Notes: generated by a model not told the origin, from the letters alone. A DNA stretch of 64,000 bases from the human T2T-CHM13v2.0 reference genome, Homo sapiens (GCF_009914755.1 NC_060925.1); one strand, 5' to 3'; counted from the first letter of the stretch, positions 13,769 through 22,500 are shown. Numbers and translations: made by a program.

Positions 13769-14421
13769 TGATGCGGTTTGGCTGTTAAATCTTATCTTGA
13801 ATTGTAGCTCCCATAATTCCCGTGTGTCGTGGGAGGGACCCAGTGGGAGGTAATTGAATCAGGGGGCGGGTCTTTCCCATGCTGTTCTTGTGACGGTGAA
13901 TAAGCCCATGAGATCTGATGGTTTTATTTTTATTTTTATTTTTTATTTTTTGAGACATAATCTTGCTCTGTTGCCCAGGCTGCACTGCAGTGGCGTGATC
14001 TCGGCTCACTGCAACCTCTGTCTCCTGGGTTCAAGCGATCCTCCTGTCTCAGCCTCCCGAGTAGCTGGGATTAGAGGCGCCCACCACCAAGCCTGGCTAA
14101 TTTTTGTATTTTTAGTAGAGACGGGGTTTCACCATGTTGGCCAGGCTGGTCTCCAACTCCTGACCTCAGGCGATCCACCCGCCTCGGCCTCCCAATGTGC
14201 TGGGATTACAGCTGATGGTTTTATAAATGGGAGTTTCCCTACACAAGCTCTTTTTGCCTGCTGCCATGTAAGAGAAGTGATTTTGCTCCTCATTTGCCTT
14301 CTGCCATGATTGTGAGGCCTCCCTAGCCATGTGGAACTGTCAGTCAATTGAACCCCTTTCCTTTATCAATTACCCAGCCTCAGGCATGTCTTTGTTAGCA
14401 GCAGGAGAACAGACTAATACA
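13769..14421 (+). mobile_element. THE1B-like solo LTR interrupted by an AluS (13922-14211, minus strand)
   Basis: Termini tgatgcggtttggctg... and ...agactaataca; Alu flanked by TSD ctgatggttttat. Confidence 0.9.
13851..13861 (+). promoter_or_regulatory. DUX4 double-homeodomain motif TAATTGAATCA in a THE1 LTR (mirror copy 21251-21261; a third at 5893-5903 on minus)
   Basis: Exact match to the TAAYYBAATCA consensus in the known MaLR context; occupancy not demonstrated. Confidence 0.6.
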
Positions 14422-16103
14422 ACCTGTATGCCAGAAAGGTTGGGAGCACTTGTGGACCCTGGCAGATAAGTAACTGGGTTTATGGTTTGGCAGACTCTAA
14501 GGGTTATGTCTGGAGTGTCTAGCAATAAGGCCTGATACTTTAATAAATGTTCTCCTATTATCCACTGGTGCCCTTTAGCTTCTAGGACCACCTTCCCTTG
14601 ATGTGGGGTCAAAAACCTTTAGGTGCTGTCCTCATGCTAGTTCATTAGCTTTGCCTACTAGAAAAGTTGCAGCAGCAACAGCTCTAAGACATCCAGGCCA
14701 CCCTGAGGCCACCTGACCTATCTGCTTAGAAAAGTATGTTACAGCCCTTGGAATGTTCCCCAGTTTTGGGACAAGATTACCCAGGGCCTATGCCTTGCTT
14801 TTTGGCCACATAAAGATAAAATGATTCATCCAACTTGGGGACTCCCACAGCTGCAGCAGAGCCCAATTTCTCTTTGAGAGTATTGAAGATTTGCTTGCAG
14901 TTCTCATTACATTCAAGGAGCTCTAAATCTTTCCCTTTTAGTGCATCCCGTAAATGCTTGGCTACACGTCCAAATCTGGGCACCCGTAAGCAGCAGTACC
15001 CAGCCATCCCCTAAAAAGGCCCACAGTCATTTGTTGGACTGCGACTCTTGAATGACTAAAAGAGCTTTTTTACTTCTAGGGATGTTGATCAGTTCCAGAG
15101 GTGAATACAGATTCCAAATATTGGAGCCGTTGAGTCAAAATCTGAGCTCTGTATGGTGATACCCTATATCTGCTAGTTCCCAGGAAATTTATCAGTTTAA
15201 CAGTATTATTATCCGAGTCTTCTTTAGTTGGGCTAGCAATGAGTAAGTCACCTAGATACTGAATAATGGTGCCTGTTTGCAACTGTAAATTTCTTAAGTC
15301 CTTAGCTAGGGCATTTTCAAATAAGTGGGGGCTATCCTAGAACCCTTCAGAGAGGACCATCCAGGTTAGTTTTGAGGTTGAATGAGTATCTGGATCAGTC
15401 CATTCAAAGGCAAACATATTGCGAATCTGGATACATTGAGATGCAGAAAAATGCATCTTTCAGAACTAAGAATGTAAACCAGCTTGGATCCCCTGGGACT
15501 TGGGTAAGGATTGGGGACAATGGGGTGTATGGAGACAACAGCTGCATTTATTAATGCTCTAAGGTTTCTGACAAATCTGTACTTGCCAGATTAGGCTTTT
15601 GATCTGGTAACATGGGAGTATTGTAAGGAGACTCTCATGGCCTTAACAAGTCATACGGCAAGAATTTGGCAATAAGGGGTTGAATTTCCCCTCATGCTTC
15701 TTGCCTTAAAGTGTATTGTCTCTTCCAAGGGCGAGGAGCACTAGGCCAAAGTTGGATTTGAATGGGGGAAGTGTTTAGTGTGTTTCCCAGAGCCTGTGTG
15801 GCCCAAACCTCAGGATTTACTTGTGAGAACACCTCAGGTGGTAAATGTGACAGCTCATCCTTAACTTCTTTTTTTCCCCGAGGGGTCAGGAATAAAAGTC
15901 ACACTTTCTCTGCTTTATGATCTGTGAAGGTCACCATGGCTTGGTCACTGGAGTCAATAAAGCTCTCCCCAGTGAGAGGTCAGGCATTCAGACAATACTA
16001 GAAAGGCAGGTGAGAAGCCCAGAGGCCCTGGAGAACAACTTAGAAGATAAGAAAAGCAGTGTTTTCCGACTTGTCCATCATGGAAGACGGGAGCCCATCG
16101 TAT

Positions 16104-19500: not shown

Positions 19501-22500
19501 GTTACCAGATCAAAAGCCTAATCTGGCAAGTACAGATTTGTCAGAAACCTTAGAGCATTAATAAATGCAGCTGTTGTCTCCATACACCCCATTGTCCCCA
19601 ATCCTTACCCAAGTCCCAGGGGATCCAAGCTGGTTTACATTCTTAGTTCTGAAAGATGCATTTTTCTGCATCTCAATGTATCCAGATTCACAATATGTTT
19701 GCCTTTGAATGGACTGATCCAGATACTCATTCAACCTCAAAACTAACCTGGATGGTCCTCTCTGAAGGGTTCTAGGATAGCCCCCACTTATTTGAAAATG
19801 CCCTAGCTAAGGACTTAAGAAATTTACAGTTGCAAACAGGCACCATTATTCAGTATCTAGGTGACTTACTCATTGCTAGCCCAACTAAAGAAGACTCGGA
19901 TAATAATACTGTTAAACTGATAAATTTCCTGGGAACTAGCAGATATAGGGTATCACCATACAGAGCTCAGATTTTGACTCAACGGCTCCAATATTTGGAA
20001 TCTGTATTCACCTCTGGAACTGATCAACATCCCTAGAAGTAAAAAAGCTCTTTTAGTCATTCAAGAGTCGCAGTCCAACAAATGACTGTGGGCCTTTTTA
20101 GGGGATGGCTGGGTACTGCTGCTTACGGGTGCCCAGATTTGGACGTGTAGCCAAGCATTTACGGGATGCACTAAAAGGGAAAGATTTAGAGCTCCTTGAA
20201 TGTAATGAGAACTGCAAGCAAATCTTCAATACTCTCAAAGAGAAATTGGGCTCTGCTGCAGCTGTGGGAGTCCCCAAGTTGGATGAATCATTTTATCTTT
20301 ATGTGGCCAAAAAGCAAGGCATAGGCCCTGGGTAATCTTGTCCCAAAACTGGGGAACATTCCAAGGGCTGTAACATACTTTTCTAAGCAGATAGGTCAGG
20401 TGGCCTCAGGGTGGCCTGGATGTCTTAGAGCTGTTGCTGCTGCAACTTTTCTAGTAGGCAAAGCTAATGAACTAGCATGAGGACAGCACCTAAAGGTTTT
20501 TGACCCCACATCAAGGGAAGGTGGTCCTAGAAGCTAAAGGGCACCAGTGGATAATAGGAGAACATTTATTAAAGTATCAGGCCTTATTGCTAGACACTCC
20601 AGACATAACCCTTAAAGTCTGCCAAACCATAAACCCAGTTACTTATCTGCCAGGGTCCACAAGTGCTCCCAACCTTTCTGGCATACAGGTTGTATTAGTC
20701 TGTTCTCCTGCTGCTAACAAAGACATGCCTGAGGCTGGGTAACTTATAAAGGAAAGGGGTTCAATTGACTGACAGTTCCACATGGCTAGGGAGGCCTCAC
20801 AATCATGGCAGAAGGCAAATGAGGAGCAAAATCACTTCTCTTACATGGCAGCAGGCAAAAAGAGCTTGTGTAGGGAAACTCCCATTTATAAAACCATCAG
20901 CTGTAATCCCAGCACATTGGGAGGCCGAGGCGGGTGGATCGCCTGAGGTCAGGAGTTGGAGACCAGCCTGGCCAACATGGTGAAACCCCGTCTCTACTAA
21001 AAATACAAAAATTAGCCAGGCTTGGTGGTGGGCGCCTCTAATCCCAGCTACTCGGGAGGCTGAGACAGGAGGATCGCTTGAACCCAGGAGACAGAGGTTG
21101 CAGTGAGCCGAGATCACGCCACTGCAGTGCAGCCTGGGCAACAGAGCAAGATTATGTCTCAAAAAATAAAAAATAAAAATAAAAATAAAACCATCAGATC
21201 TCATGGGCTTATTCACCGTCACAAGAACAGCATGGGAAAGACCCGCCCCCTGATTCAATTACCTCCCACTGGGTCCCTCCCACGACACACGGGAATTATG
21301 GGAGCTACAATTCAAGATAAGATTTAACAGCCAAACCACATCACGGGTTATGAAACAAAGTTATTCTAGCAGGCCAGACTTAAGAGAGATGAGCCCCTTG
21401 ACCATCCCAAGGAAGAGTGGTTAAAAGATGCAGGTTGTCTTATGCATCAGGAAAACAGGAAGGGTAGGTATGCTATTATTAGTCGGCACAAGATAATCAA
21501 GGCACAAGCCTTGCTGGCCTCTACCTCAGCTCAAAAAGCTGAGTCAATTAAACTTACCAGAGCCCTGCCGTTGGGAAAGGACTTAAAAGTTAACATTTAC
21601 ACTGATTCCAAGTATGATTTCTTAGTGCTTCATGCTTATGCTGCAATTTGGAATGGGTAGGGACTCCTGACCACGAAGGGCTTTTCCATACATTACTCAG
21701 ATTTTGAGCTTGTTAGAATGCTGCTTTGCCGCCATTAAAAAAAAAAGTGGCTGTAATTCATTGCAGAGGACATCAAAAGAGAGACTGACCGTGTAAAAGG
21801 AAATGCCCTCACAGATGTGTCAGCCAAGGCCACTGCACTGAAAGGGCCAGTGAAGCTTCTGGGCATACTGCTCAGCGTACACAGAGCTGGGCCAGAACAC
21901 TCTGAAGAGAACAAAAATGGGCCAGGGATTGCAGTTCAGTCCAGGATCCCTCTGGCTGGCTGACTGATGGTAATAAGTTACTAATGCCGAGCACCAATTG
22001 TAGGAAAATAATTAAGCACTTTCATGATTCTTTCCACCCTAGAAGGGATTCTTTGCTTCAGTTAATGTCTCATTTGTTTATGGGGATAAATCTTTTCAAG
22101 ACGCTAAAACAGGTGACTCAGCCCTGTGAGCGCTGTGTCTGACATAACCCACAGACCCAGCAATTTTCACCTCCTCCAGTTAAACCTGTCCAACATTGAG
22201 GAACCTATCCAGGTGAGGACTGGCAACTCTAATTTACTCAGATGCCTTTCTGTAGGAGATTCAGGTATTTGCTAATGCTTACTGTTACATTCACTGGTTA
22301 GATCCAGGCATTCCCCACCCTATCTGACAAGTGTTTACCAGAAGAAATAATTCCTCCTTTTGGGTCATCCAAAGGCCTGCAAAGTGACAATGGCCCATCT
22401 TTCACAGCAGGCGTCTCCCAACAGCTATCCTCAGCTTTAGGAATCCAATAATCACCTTCACTCTGCATGGAGACCGCAGTCCTCTGGAAAGGTGAAAGGG

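What the first reader, a model, noticed from the sequence alone, without database searches (positions are those of the whole stretch)
13769..21343. Convergent DUX4-motif THE1B LTRs across the palindrome centre: candidate embryo-inducible hairpin dsRNA locus
Seen: the two THE1B-like LTRs face each other (+ at 13769, - at 21343), each with a perfect TAATTGAATCA. Established: THE1/MaLR LTRs act as DUX4-activated and oocyte promoters. Inference: a transcript from either LTR crossing the 2.9-kb spacer would fold into a near-perfect stem of at least 1.7 kb (14422-16103 with 19008-20690), a substrate for ADAR, Dicer or MDA5. Longer read-through would enter the opposite tubulin pseudogene in sense. 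This is the best candidate here for an undescribed regulatory system, but no expression evidence is visible in the sequence.
Basis: inference. Interest (0 to 1): 0.7.

Follow-up and report, generated by a model that had tools for sequence, protein, structure and literature searches.

The report
Mirrored LTRs in oocyte piRNA palindrome
The two facing retroviral LTRs are one old, Alu-split LTR copied into both arms of a 27-kb palindrome that appears to match an already published human-oocyte piRNA cluster, and nothing yet shows that it makes a DUX4-switched hairpin RNA.

Summary
THE1-type solo LTRs lie at 13769-14421 (+) and 20691-21343 (-). Each carries TAATTGAATCA. The arms 14422-16103 and 19008-20690 differ by 2 mismatches and one 1-base indel.

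The two LTRs are not independent. They are one LTR duplicated inside a much larger palindrome (2886-16103 / 19008-29988) built from a TUBB8 pseudogene plus a class I ERV. Each LTR is split by a 284-bp Alu between the DUX4-type motif and the TATA box.

Published base rates are low: 1.0% of DUX4-bound THE1Bs are activated. A third LTR in the window with the same 11-mer probably matches a DUX4 peak scored 'Not expressed'.

After coordinate conversion (partly from recalled offsets), the palindrome coincides with published minus-strand human-oocyte piRNA clusters. These are abundant in oocytes and 2-cell embryos, PIWI-bound, and not called endo-siRNA clusters.

Most likely this is a palindromic germline piRNA-precursor locus with passenger LTRs. 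The LTR-driven, DUX4-induced dsRNA reading remains untested. DUX4-induced intergenic dsRNA is itself an already described kind.

The parts
2886..16103 (.). Left arm of the palindrome. It carries a 2.56-kb left-arm-only insertion at 3436-5994.
   Evidence: blastn of the left half against the right half, minus strand. The blocks are colinear and mirrored. Identity is 98.1% over 9518-16103, 76-82% over 5995-9385, and 87% over 2886-3435.
19008..29988 (.). Right arm of the palindrome. It is the parental copy, continuous with the spacer ERV.
   Evidence: The ERV reading order gag-pro-RT-RNaseH-IN runs unbroken from the spacer into this arm.
16104..19007 (+). Unique 2.9-kb spacer. It is the 5' part of a degenerate class I (gamma-like) ERV: an LTR-like tail with AATAAA at 16394, gag with a Zn knuckle, and the start of protease.
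   Evidence: Sequence, ORF pieces, and Pfam: Gag_p30 E 0.0036 and RVP E 8.3e-4, both below the curated cut-offs. The LTR-tail reading is inferred.
13769..14421 (+). THE1-type solo LTR, left copy. It starts TG and ends CA, and is flanked by ACCCG / ACCTG.
   Evidence: Its second half is 85.6% identical to the LTR at 5623-5786, which a published table labels THE1B. The subfamily was not tested here.
20691..21343 (-). Mirror copy of the same LTR.
   Evidence: 99.4% and 99.0% identity for the two halves, with 3 differences in all.
13851..13861 (+). DUX4-type 11-mer TAATTGAATCA. Its mirror is at 21251-21261 (-).
13928..14211 (-). Alu inserted into the LTR between the motif and the TATA box, with a 13-bp target duplication (13915-13927 and 14212-14224). 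Its mirror is at 20901-21184 (+).
   Evidence: sequence; 100% identical to its mirror and 81-86% identical to other Alus in the window.
14422..16103 (.). Proximal stem arm, which pairs with 19008-20690. It is an inverted copy of ERV protease/RT sequence.
19008..22873 (+). ERV protease-RT-RNaseH-integrase remnants, interrupted by the LTR at 20691-21343.
   Evidence: Pfam: RVT_1 E 2.1e-4, RNase_H E 5.1e-8, Integrase_H2C2 E 5.9e-7. Many stops and frameshifts.
9747..12090 (-). TUBB8P10, including an unannotated copy of exon 1 at about 11979-12090.
   Evidence: Hub annotation. The mirror of TUBB8P9 exon 1 is identical. The ORF is broken in exon 4.
23022..25367 (+). TUBB8P9.
   Evidence: Hub annotation. 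The internal splice sites read AG/GT, and the reading frame is broken in exon 4.
3438..5994 (-). Full-length THE1-type element present in the left arm only. Its 5' LTR carries the third TAATTGAATCA at 5893-5903.
   Evidence: It probably matches the DUX4 ChIP peak hg19 chr1:227676513-227676887, labelled THE1B, height 78, 'Not expressed'.
2012..30261 (-). Published human-oocyte piRNA clusters in converted coordinates. os-piRNA cluster: about -12,000 to 30,261. Human-Cluster22: about 2,012 to 29,326. 30-nt piRNA cluster: about 2,597 to 12,075.
   Evidence: The conversion used is hg38 = window + 227,483,104. It rests on the peak, a recalled ZNF678 position and a recalled hg19-to-hg38 shift.

Best explanation
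The interval is the core of a roughly 27-kb palindrome, that is, an inverted segmental duplication. The duplicated unit was a degenerate class I ERV followed by a TUBB8 pseudogene. The right arm plus the spacer is the parental copy. The left arm is an inverted copy joined inside the ERV protease.

A single THE1-type solo LTR, already split by an Alu, lay in the ERV RNase H region. It was copied with the arm and is kept nearly identical by arm-to-arm sequence exchange. This is why two LTRs with the same ancestral DUX4-type 11-mer now face each other.

The RNA output is most likely one or more long minus-strand transcripts made in growing oocytes. These are processed into PIWIL3-bound ~20-nt and PIWIL1-bound ~30-nt piRNAs. 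One strong unit starts at the TUBB8P10 promoter. The LTRs are passengers and piRNA source sequence, not shown to be promoters. The kb-scale hairpin is a latent property of any RNA that crosses the centre; nothing shows that it forms.

Shown: the anatomy. Taken from published tables by coordinate conversion: the piRNA clusters. Inferred: the gene conversion, the identity of the promoters, and the passenger status of the LTRs.
For: Anatomy:
- Mirrored colinear blocks run 2886-16103 against 19008-29988.
- Arm differences thin toward the centre. There are 115 differences over 9518-16103, dense at 9518-9910, patchy at 10231-10392 and 10766-10779, and about 0.4% inward of 10780. This pattern fits conversion tracts.
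- The ERV domain order on the plus strand, from the spacer into the right arm, is Gag_p30, RVP, RVT_1, RNase_H, Integrase_H2C2.
- The LTRs differ at 3 positions and share the same Alu and target duplication.

Published small-RNA data:
- Yang 2019 os-piRNA cluster chr1_227471102_227513365_-: minus strand 1984-4763 RPM versus plus strand 83-157 in 6 oocytes; 2124-4291 in 2-cell embryos; 98-504 in morulae; HIWI3-IP 3999 versus input 2333; values drop after oxidation.
- Yang 2019 30-nt cluster chr1_227485701_227495179_-: enriched after oxidation, HIWI-IP 110, HIWI3-IP 0.6.
- Hou 2024 Human-Cluster22, NC_000001.11:227485116-227512430, 27,315 bp, minus strand.

Fit of the conversion:
- Human-Cluster22 has almost the length of the palindrome (27,315 versus 27,103 bp) and overlaps it.
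- The 30-nt cluster begins about 15 bp from the mirrored TUBB8P exon-1 start.
- The cluster rule (a boundary is set where density falls below 10 small RNAs per kb) implies that small RNAs also come from the centre.

Other support:
- TUBB8P10 and TUBB8P9 both appear in a human-oocyte expression table, lower in primordial and primary stages.
- The minus strand has no AATAAA or ATTAAA from 28,398 down to 20,570.
Against: - The mapping of hg38 clusters onto the window uses a recalled ZNF678 hg19 start and a recalled hg19-to-hg38 shift of 187,701. No independent anchor was found.
- Only cluster-level tables were seen, not per-base or per-strand profiles. Reads from the near-identical inner arms map to both arms on opposite strands and were apportioned by the neighbouring unique reads. 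So the strand and origin of the central reads are unknown, and LTR-initiated central transcripts are not excluded.
- The absence of a DUX4 peak and of an LTR-initiated oocyte transcript at the two LTRs is weak evidence. The peak list used unique reads only, and the search would miss a transcript that spans the region but ends outside it.
- TUBB8P read counts in oocytes could be cross-mapping from the abundant TUBB8 mRNA.
- The 30-nt piRNA values do not fall at the morula stage (218-691), so some embryonic production is possible.
Confidence: 0.6

Rival explanations
1. DUX4 (in cleavage embryos or FSHD muscle) or oocyte factors fire one or both LTRs. The transcript crosses the spacer and folds into a stem of at least 1.7 kb that is handled by ADAR, Dicer or MDA5.
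For: - The motif fits the DUX4 ChIP consensus.
- 29.6% of genomic THE1B copies are DUX4-bound, and a neighbouring LTR with the same 11-mer probably carries a peak.
- The TATAAA is retained, and the LTR's own poly(A) hexamer position reads ATTGAA. That this position is ATTAAA in the family is recalled, not tested.
- The stem is near-perfect.
- THE1 LTRs start transcripts in human oocytes.
- The centre of the palindrome appears to give small RNAs in oocytes.
Against: - Only 65 of 6,594 THE1B peaks (1.0%) are activated, and THE1B is singled out as rarely activated. The neighbouring bound LTR is 'Not expressed'.
- The Alu separates the motif from the TATA box by 360 bp instead of about 63.
- TAATTGAATCA is not the optimal DUX4 site, which is TAATCTAATCA.
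- To reach the far arm, a plus-strand RNA must pass 7 AATAAA/ATTAAA hexamers, including the sense ERV signal at 16394. A minus-strand RNA must pass 9.
- Oocyte small RNAs are more than 95% minus-strand although the two LTRs are nearly identical. They are maternal in timing and piRNA-like, and no endo-siRNA cluster is listed here.
- Human oocytes are reported to lack endo-siRNAs.
- No LTR-initiated oocyte transcript is listed here.
- RefSeq annotates no transcript between 11720 and 23022 (hub table).
Confidence: 0.06
2. An inert palindrome: an ordinary inverted segmental duplication with passenger repeats. Any small RNAs are by-products of neighbouring transcription or of read allocation, or the coordinate conversion is wrong. 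The only consequences are at the DNA level (gene conversion, possible inversion of the spacer, instability).
For: - The tubulin copies are dead, with shared frameshifts and stops in exon 4.
- The ERV is degenerate.
- There is no Rfam family match in 2000-31000.
- No transcript is annotated in the centre (hub table).
- The conversion partly rests on recall.
- The authors themselves describe piRNA clusters as fast-evolving with low sequence conservation.
Against: - Two published tables from different datasets place a strongly strand-biased, PIWI-associated cluster of thousands of RPM on a 27-42 kb interval. Its length and edges fit the palindrome and the TUBB8P10 start.
- Chance agreement of a 27,315-bp cluster with a 27,103-bp palindrome is unlikely.
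Confidence: 0.2
3. A palindrome-spanning precursor with a function. One minus-strand oocyte transcript runs through both arms. A uni-strand cluster then supplies both sense and antisense piRNAs to the same TUBB8-family, ERV and THE1 sequences. Antisense-TUBB8 piRNAs could act on TUBB8 mRNA, and part of the precursor may fold into long dsRNA.
For: - The clusters are contiguous, minus-strand, and cover both arms.
- The annotated minus-strand lncRNA LOC105373122 ends at 25,234/5. This is exactly where arm identity rises to 96% or more (24815-25242). No canonical poly(A) hexamer is nearby, so the end looks like a mappability truncation.
- There is no minus-strand hexamer from 28,398 to 20,570.
- The os-piRNA cluster definition requires some ping-pong pairs.
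Against: - No per-base data were seen.
- The 30-nt cluster starts only at the TUBB8P10 promoter. This fits separate transcription units at least as well.
- Foldback RNA is reported to be a poor piRNA substrate and a Dicer substrate instead, yet no endo-siRNA cluster is listed here.
- The authors report that os-piRNAs from mRNA regions are mostly sense and are not inclined to regulate mRNAs.
- The identity of the pseudogenes to TUBB8 was not measured.
Confidence: 0.12

Closest known systems
DUX4-bound MaLR/THE1B LTR promoters (Young et al. 2013, PMC3836709; passages and Table S1 seen)
   Same: THE1-type LTR that carries the family's DUX4-type double-homeobox motif. THE1B is among the most enriched DUX4-bound repeats.
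   Different: No binding or activation is shown for these two copies. They sit in a blind spot of analyses that use unique reads only. The core promoter is separated from the motif by an Alu. Only 1.0% of bound THE1Bs are activated.
   Different: Those dsRNAs come mainly from inverted Alus, ERV/LINE-1 sequence and bidirectional HSATII. A kb-scale near-perfect palindromic stem was not described in the passages read. Whether this locus is in their dsRNA tables could not be checked.
Mouse oocyte hairpin and pseudogene endo-siRNA loci (Tam 2008 and Watanabe 2008; seen only as references, content recalled)
   Same: Inverted-repeat pseudogene copies in a germline-expressed locus, with MaLR-type LTRs nearby.
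   Different: These loci depend on the mouse oocyte Dicer isoform. Endo-siRNAs are reported as mouse-specific and absent from human oocytes. The small RNAs listed at this locus are piRNA-type.
Human oocyte os-piRNA and 30-nt piRNA clusters (Yang et al. 2019, PMC6662892; Hou et al. 2024, PMC10964541)
   Same: After conversion, the locus is itself listed as a cluster. It is strand-biased, 1U/10A by definition, PIWIL3/PIWIL1-associated, and maternal.
   Different: Neither paper's text, as far as the passages searched show, mentions that this cluster is a palindrome carrying a TUBB8 pseudogene pair ('tubb8' 0 occurrences; 'palindrome' 0 in both).
Large sex-chromosome palindromes kept alike by arm-to-arm gene conversion (recalled, no call)
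   Same: Inverted arms with a unique spacer, near-identity of the arms, and germline-expressed gene family members in the arms.
   Different: This one is autosomal and much smaller. Only the inner ~5.3 kb per arm is about 99.6% identical, and the outer arms are 76-87%. The genes are dead pseudogenes.

Membership tests
THE1-type (MaLR) solo LTR | TG...CA termini, about 350-370 bp, short flanking target duplication, no internal region attached | tested here: met
   13769 starts TG and 14421 ends CA. The length is 356 bp once the Alu and one copy of its target duplication are removed. The flanks are ACCCG / ACCTG. ERV RNase H sequence lies on both sides.
THE1-type (MaLR) solo LTR | Assignment to subfamily THE1B by comparison with a repeat library | not testable with these tools
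   No repeat library is at hand. The only indirect evidence is 84-86% identity to a neighbouring LTR that a published table labels THE1B.
DUX4-activated LTR promoter | DUX4 consensus site present | tested here: met
   TAATTGAATCA fits TAAYBBAATCA. It is not the optimal TAATCTAATCA.
DUX4-activated LTR promoter | DUX4 occupancy in ChIP-seq | tested here: inconclusive
   There is no peak with coordinates beginning 22768 or 22769 on hg19 chr1 in Table S1. However, peaks used uniquely mapping reads only, and the motif lies in sequence that is identical in both arms.
DUX4-activated LTR promoter | DUX4-dependent transcript starting in the LTR | not testable with these tools
   No read-level data were available. 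Base rate: 65 of 6,594 THE1B peaks are activated.
DUX4-activated LTR promoter | Intact arrangement of upstream motif and core promoter | tested here: not met
   A 284-bp Alu plus a 13-bp duplication lies between the motif and the TATAAA.
Hairpin endo-siRNA locus | Long inverted repeat able to fold within one transcript | tested here: met
Hairpin endo-siRNA locus | 21-23-nt Dicer products with 2-nt 3' overhangs | tested here: not met
   In the Yang 2019 supplementary files searched (11 of 12; file 7 unreadable), the locus is listed only as an os-piRNA cluster and a 30-nt piRNA cluster. Endo-siRNA calling preceded os-piRNA calling. This depends on the coordinate conversion.
Germline piRNA cluster | Dense small RNAs with 1U/10A bias, strand bias and PIWI association | tested here: met
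   Read from published tables, not recomputed. This depends on the coordinate conversion.
Palindrome maintained by gene conversion | Arm identity far above that expected from the age of the duplication, with conversion-tract patchwork | tested here: inconclusive
   The identity gradient (about 99.6% inner, 96%, then 76-87% outer) and the clustered differences fit conversion. A two-step duplication was not excluded, and no other genomes were compared.

The most novel reading that the evidence does not exclude
A single minus-strand oocyte precursor runs through the whole 27-kb palindrome. One uni-strand piRNA cluster would then yield both sense and antisense piRNAs to the same TUBB8-family, ERV and THE1 sequences, giving a built-in supply of ping-pong partners. 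The antisense-TUBB8 piRNAs could tune TUBB8, the primate oocyte beta-tubulin. A fraction of the precursor may fold into a kb-long dsRNA.
Probability: 0.12. Interest if true: 0.7.

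Novelty: new member of a known kind. Interest (0 to 1): 0.35.

Why it matters
As written, the finding is a hypothesis on ordinary parts: one LTR duplicated in a palindrome, carrying a motif its whole family carries. Its proposed mechanism is a kind already in print.

The palindrome itself is more useful. It appears to be a highly expressed human-oocyte piRNA cluster whose palindromic, TUBB8-pseudogene architecture the cluster papers do not mention in the passages searched. 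If one precursor crosses both arms, two questions become directly testable with public oocyte data re-mapped to T2T-CHM13. First, how does a piRNA precursor with a 6.6-kb near-perfect inverted repeat escape, or use, dsRNA pathways? Second, do pseudogene-derived antisense piRNAs touch TUBB8, a gene important for human oocyte maturation?

The locus also shows how analyses that keep only unique reads (ChIP peaks, lncRNA models) go blind exactly where the arms become identical.

Tried and rejected
I corrected it to the published TAAYBBAATCA.
- Rfam at gathering thresholds over 2000-31000 gave 0 matches, so no known structured RNA or miRNA lies here.
- the published version of Shadle 2019 is not held and bioRxiv supplements are closed. 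I could not check whether this locus is among their dsRNA-enriched regions.
- the supplements of the 2026 human oogenesis piRNA paper gave only chance digit matches in TE tables. Files 13-14 were not searched.
- 'TUBB8P' together with 'DUX4' found 1 paper, a cancer expression list that is irrelevant.
- a search for six predicted hg38/T2T coordinates as an independent anchor found 0 papers.
- no human LTR-initiated oocyte transcript has a start, end or repeat ID beginning 22767-22771. The only hits were 2 mouse rows.
- I considered that the palindrome preserves functional tubulin genes. I rejected this because both copies have frameshifts and stops in exon 4.
- The Alu subfamily and age, and the presence of the palindrome in other primates, were not determined. 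No repeat library or other primate genomes were available.

Full report
OBSERVATION

The inverted repeat is real and larger than reported. The repeat finder lists arms 12662-16082 and 19030-22450 (3421 nt, shown as 100% complementary, 2947 nt apart), followed outward by mirrored blocks of 99%, 96% and then 75-92% identity. blastn of the left half of the region against the right half gives colinear mirrored blocks from 2886 to 16103 against 29988 to 19008. Identity is 98.1% over 9518-16103, 76-82% over 5995-9385 and 87% over 2886-3435. A 2.56-kb segment (3436-5994) is present only in the left arm.

A global alignment of 9518-16103 with the reverse complement of 19008-25604 shows 115 differences. 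They are dense at 9518-9910, occur in patches at 10231-10392 and 10766-10779, and are sparse inward of 10780. Perfect runs reach 924 and 660 bp. The arm-to-arm duplex energy is -3421 kcal/mol for the plus-strand RNA and -3428 for the minus-strand RNA, against -630 to -674 for five shuffled partners.

The LTRs are also real. The left copy runs 13769-14421, begins TG and ends CA, and is flanked by ACCCG and ACCTG, a 4-of-5 match. The mirror copy is 20691-21343. The two differ at three positions (13774, 14367, 14369).

TAATTGAATCA occurs three times in the window, at 5893 (-), 13851 (+) and 21251 (-). The expectation is 0.07, and 0 of 100 shuffles reach three. The published ChIP consensus TAAYBBAATCA finds the same three sites, with 0.74 expected and 4 of 100 shuffles reaching three. 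With up to two mismatches the count is 30, no more than chance at 29.2 expected.

First, each LTR is split by an antisense Alu. The Alu body is 13928-14211, with a 13-bp target duplication at 13915-27 and 14212-24. It was inserted just upstream of the TATAAA at 14222-14227. The DUX4-type motif is therefore 360 bp from the TATA box instead of about 63 bp. The Alu is 100% identical in the two arms.

Second, the 'two convergent LTRs with perfect motifs' are one insertion seen twice. The third motif copy lies in the 5' LTR of a full-length THE1-type element (3438-5994, minus strand). That LTR is 84-86% identical to the palindromic LTR. The motif is family sequence, not a local coincidence.

Third, the stem and spacer are a degenerate class I endogenous retrovirus. 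On the plus strand, the spacer holds:
- an LTR-like tail with AATAAA at 16394 (the LTR reading is inferred);
- gag pieces (Gag_p30, E 0.0036, below the curated cut-off);
- a CX2CX4HX4C knuckle;
- the start of protease (RVP, E 8.3e-4, 20.1 bits against a cut-off of 20.7).

The right arm continues with RT (RVT_1, E 2.1e-4, below cut-off), RNase H (E 5.1e-8) and the integrase zinc domain (E 5.9e-7). Of the 14 ORF pieces scanned, 5 gave retroviral families, 1 gave a spurious ApoB100_C match and 8 gave nothing.

The right arm plus the spacer is therefore the parental copy. The left arm is an inverted copy joined inside protease. The LTR sits in the RNase H region, with retroviral sequence on both sides.

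Outside the ERV lie the two tubulin pseudogenes, pointing away from the centre. A copy of exon 1, identical to that of TUBB8P9, lies unannotated at about 11979-12090 in the left arm. Both pseudogenes have frameshifts and stops in exon 4. No Rfam family matches 2000-31000.

DUX4

Young et al. 2013 (PMC3836709; passages, Table 1 and Table S1 seen) report the following for THE1B:
- 22,433 genomic copies;
- 6,594 peaks;
- 29.6% of copies bound;
- 65 bound and activated regions, that is, 1.0% of bound copies;
- THE1B is named as a class that is rarely activated.

In Table S1, searched for coordinates beginning 22766 to 22774, the only chr1 row is chr1:227676513-227676887 (hg19): THE1B, height 78, one motif at 227676695-711, 'Not expressed'. 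If this is the LTR at window 5893, then window position plus 227,670,805 gives hg19. That places the start of ZNF678 within about 75 bp of the hg19 position I recall. On this reading, a neighbouring LTR with the identical 11-mer is bound but silent in DUX4-expressing myoblasts.

The two palindromic LTRs have no peak. This says little, because peaks were called from uniquely mapping reads only and the motif lies in sequence identical in both arms.

The review PMC12376486 gives TAATCTAATCA as the optimal and most active site. The LTR site differs from it.

Shadle et al. [quoted passage not shown] Their supplementary region lists could not be reached.

WOULD A TRANSCRIPT REACH THE OTHER ARM?

From the left TATA box to 19008, the plus strand carries 7 AATAAA/ATTAAA hexamers. 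One of them is the sense-strand retroviral signal at 16394, which has a GT-rich downstream stretch. From the right TATA box to 16103, the minus strand carries 9. Hexamers alone do not prove termination, but they lower the odds.

PUBLISHED GERMLINE DATA

Searching supplements for the expected hg38 coordinates gave three hits.

Yang et al. 2019 (PMC6662892; hg38, zero mismatches allowed, multi-mappers apportioned by unique reads within 5 kb) list two clusters.

The os-piRNA cluster chr1_227471102_227513365_- has these values:

| Sample | Minus strand (RPM) | Plus strand (RPM) |
|---|---|---|
| 6 oocytes | 1984-4763 | 83-157 |
| 2-cell embryos | 2124-4291 | |
| Morulae | 98-504 | |
| IP input | 2333 | |
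| HIWI3-IP | 3999 | |
| HIWI-IP | 1040 | |

In the oxidation series the minus-strand values drop sharply, from 1627 to 147, 1790 to 201 and 1316 to 139.

The 30-nt piRNA cluster chr1_227485701_227495179_- has minus-strand values of 128-238 RPM, rising to 1085-1421 after oxidation. HIWI-IP is 110 and HIWI3-IP is 0.6. Morula values are 218-691.

Hou et al. 2024 (PMC10964541; GRCh38.p13) list Human-Cluster22, NC_000001.11:227485116-227512430, 27,315 bp, minus strand.

With a recalled hg19-to-hg38 shift of 187,701, hg38 equals window position plus 227,483,104. The three clusters then fall at these window positions:

| Cluster | Window position |
|---|---|
| os-piRNA cluster (Yang 2019) | about -12,000 to 30,261 |
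| 30-nt piRNA cluster (Yang 2019) | about 2,597 to 12,075 |
| Human-Cluster22 (Hou 2024) | about 2,012 to 29,326 |

Two coincidences support the conversion. Cluster22 is as long as the palindrome (27,315 against 27,103 bp) and overlaps it. The 30-nt cluster begins about 15 bp from the mirrored tubulin exon-1 start.

I found no independent anchor, so this step is probable, not proven. An error of less than about 8 kb would still leave the finding's interval (13769-21343) inside the two large clusters.

Yang's cluster rule sets a boundary where density falls below 10 small RNAs per kb in 5-kb windows. This implies that the centre of the palindrome also gives small RNAs.

The reads were classed as os-piRNAs (18-22 nt, 1U/10A, some ping-pong pairs) only after endo-siRNA calling had been tried. 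No endo-siRNA cluster appears at the locus in the 11 of 12 files that could be searched.

Both papers state that human oocytes lack endo-siRNAs.

A re-analysis of human single-oocyte RNA-seq (PMC10778858) lists TUBB8P10 as an antral-stage marker. Its supplement shows both TUBB8P10 and TUBB8P9 lower in primordial and primary stages: logFC -3.5/-3.4 and -2.7/-3.0, with AveExpr 6.8 and 6.6. Cross-mapping from TUBB8 cannot be excluded.

Brind'Amour et al. 2018 (PMC6102241) found 1,056 LTR-initiated transcripts in human oocytes, 36% of them from MaLRs, mostly THE1 or MLT1. None has a start, end or repeat ID beginning 22767-22771 on hg19 chr1 in the files searched. This is weak evidence, for the same mappability reasons.

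READING

The most economical account has four parts:
- The locus is a palindromic segmental duplication of an ERV-plus-TUBB8-pseudogene unit.
- Its inner arms are kept alike by sequence exchange.
- It is transcribed mainly on the minus strand in growing oocytes as one or more piRNA precursors, one unit starting at the TUBB8P10 promoter.
- The mirrored LTRs are passengers.

The maternal time course, the strand asymmetry despite near-identical LTRs, the piRNA-type reads and the cluster edges all point away from DUX4-fired LTRs and Dicer products.

Some things are not settled. Central reads could in part start at the right LTR, which points the same way as the cluster. I saw no per-base data.

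Two sequence details favour minus-strand read-through into the inner arms. First, no AATAAA or ATTAAA lies on the minus strand from 28,398 down to 20,570. Second, the predicted lncRNA LOC105373122 ends at 25,234/5, exactly where arm identity rises to 96% or more (24815-25242), with no hexamer nearby. That end looks like a loss of mappable reads and not a true 3' end.

If one precursor does span both arms, it would carry a 6.6-kb, 98% inverted repeat. It would give sense and antisense piRNAs to the same sequences. Rosenkranz et al. 2015 (PMC4408798) argue that foldback RNA goes to Dicer while piRNAs prefer accessible sites. This makes such a precursor an interesting case, or else an argument that the arms are transcribed separately.

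NOVELTY

The parts are known kinds: a THE1 LTR, an Alu, an ERV, pseudogenes and a palindrome. DUX4-induced dsRNA is published, and the cluster is listed in two papers' tables.

In the searches I ran, no text links this cluster to a palindrome or to TUBB8 pseudogenes:
- 1 paper mentions TUBB8P10, and none mentions TUBB8P9 or LOC105373122;
- 'tubb8' occurs 0 times in Yang 2019;
- 'palindrome' occurs 0 times in both cluster papers.

I rate the locus a new member of a known kind, of moderate interest. The main value lies in the re-analysis it suggests.

Noticed in passing
window 3438-5994 (-): A full-length THE1-type element (two LTRs, an internal region, and an Alu at 4984-5207) is present only in the left arm. 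Its 5' LTR carries the third TAATTGAATCA. It probably matches a published DUX4 ChIP peak (hg19 chr1:227676513-227676887, height 78) scored 'Not expressed'.
   Followed up: partly
window 9518-16103 vs 19008-25604: Arm identity falls in steps from the centre outward: about 99.6% inner, then 96%, then 76-87%. The differences cluster in short patches (10231-10392, 10766-10779). This looks like a patchwork of conversion tracts in an old autosomal palindrome.
   Followed up: partly
window 25234-25242 (-): The predicted lncRNA LOC105373122 ends exactly where the arms become 96% or more identical. No AATAAA or ATTAAA lies nearby. The annotated 3' end may be a mappability artefact, and the RNA may continue antisense through TUBB8P9.
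   Followed up: partly
window 20570-28398 (-): The minus strand has no AATAAA or ATTAAA hexamer over 7.8 kb (antisense to TUBB8P9 and the ERV integrase/RNase H region). Elsewhere in the region such hexamers occur every few hundred bases to about 1.3 kb.
   Followed up: no
window 11979-12090 (-): A copy of tubulin exon 1 with the start codon, identical to TUBB8P9 exon 1, lies upstream of the annotated TUBB8P10 model. That model lists only 3 exons.
   Followed up: yes
window 16083-16103 / 19008-19030: The palindrome junction lies inside the ERV protease, just after the active-site motif. The parental copy can therefore be identified as the right arm plus the spacer.
   Followed up: partly
window 2524-2853 (+): Another, more diverged MaLR-type LTR (75-79% identical to the palindromic LTR) sits just outside the left end of the palindrome. 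This is close to the converted 3' edges of the published clusters.
   Followed up: no
Yang 2019 Table S4 row for chr1_227485701_227495179_-: Unlike the os-piRNAs, the 30-nt piRNA values of this locus do not fall at the morula stage (218-691 versus 192-227 in spike-in oocytes). The cause is unexplained: it may be normalisation or embryonic production.
   Followed up: no
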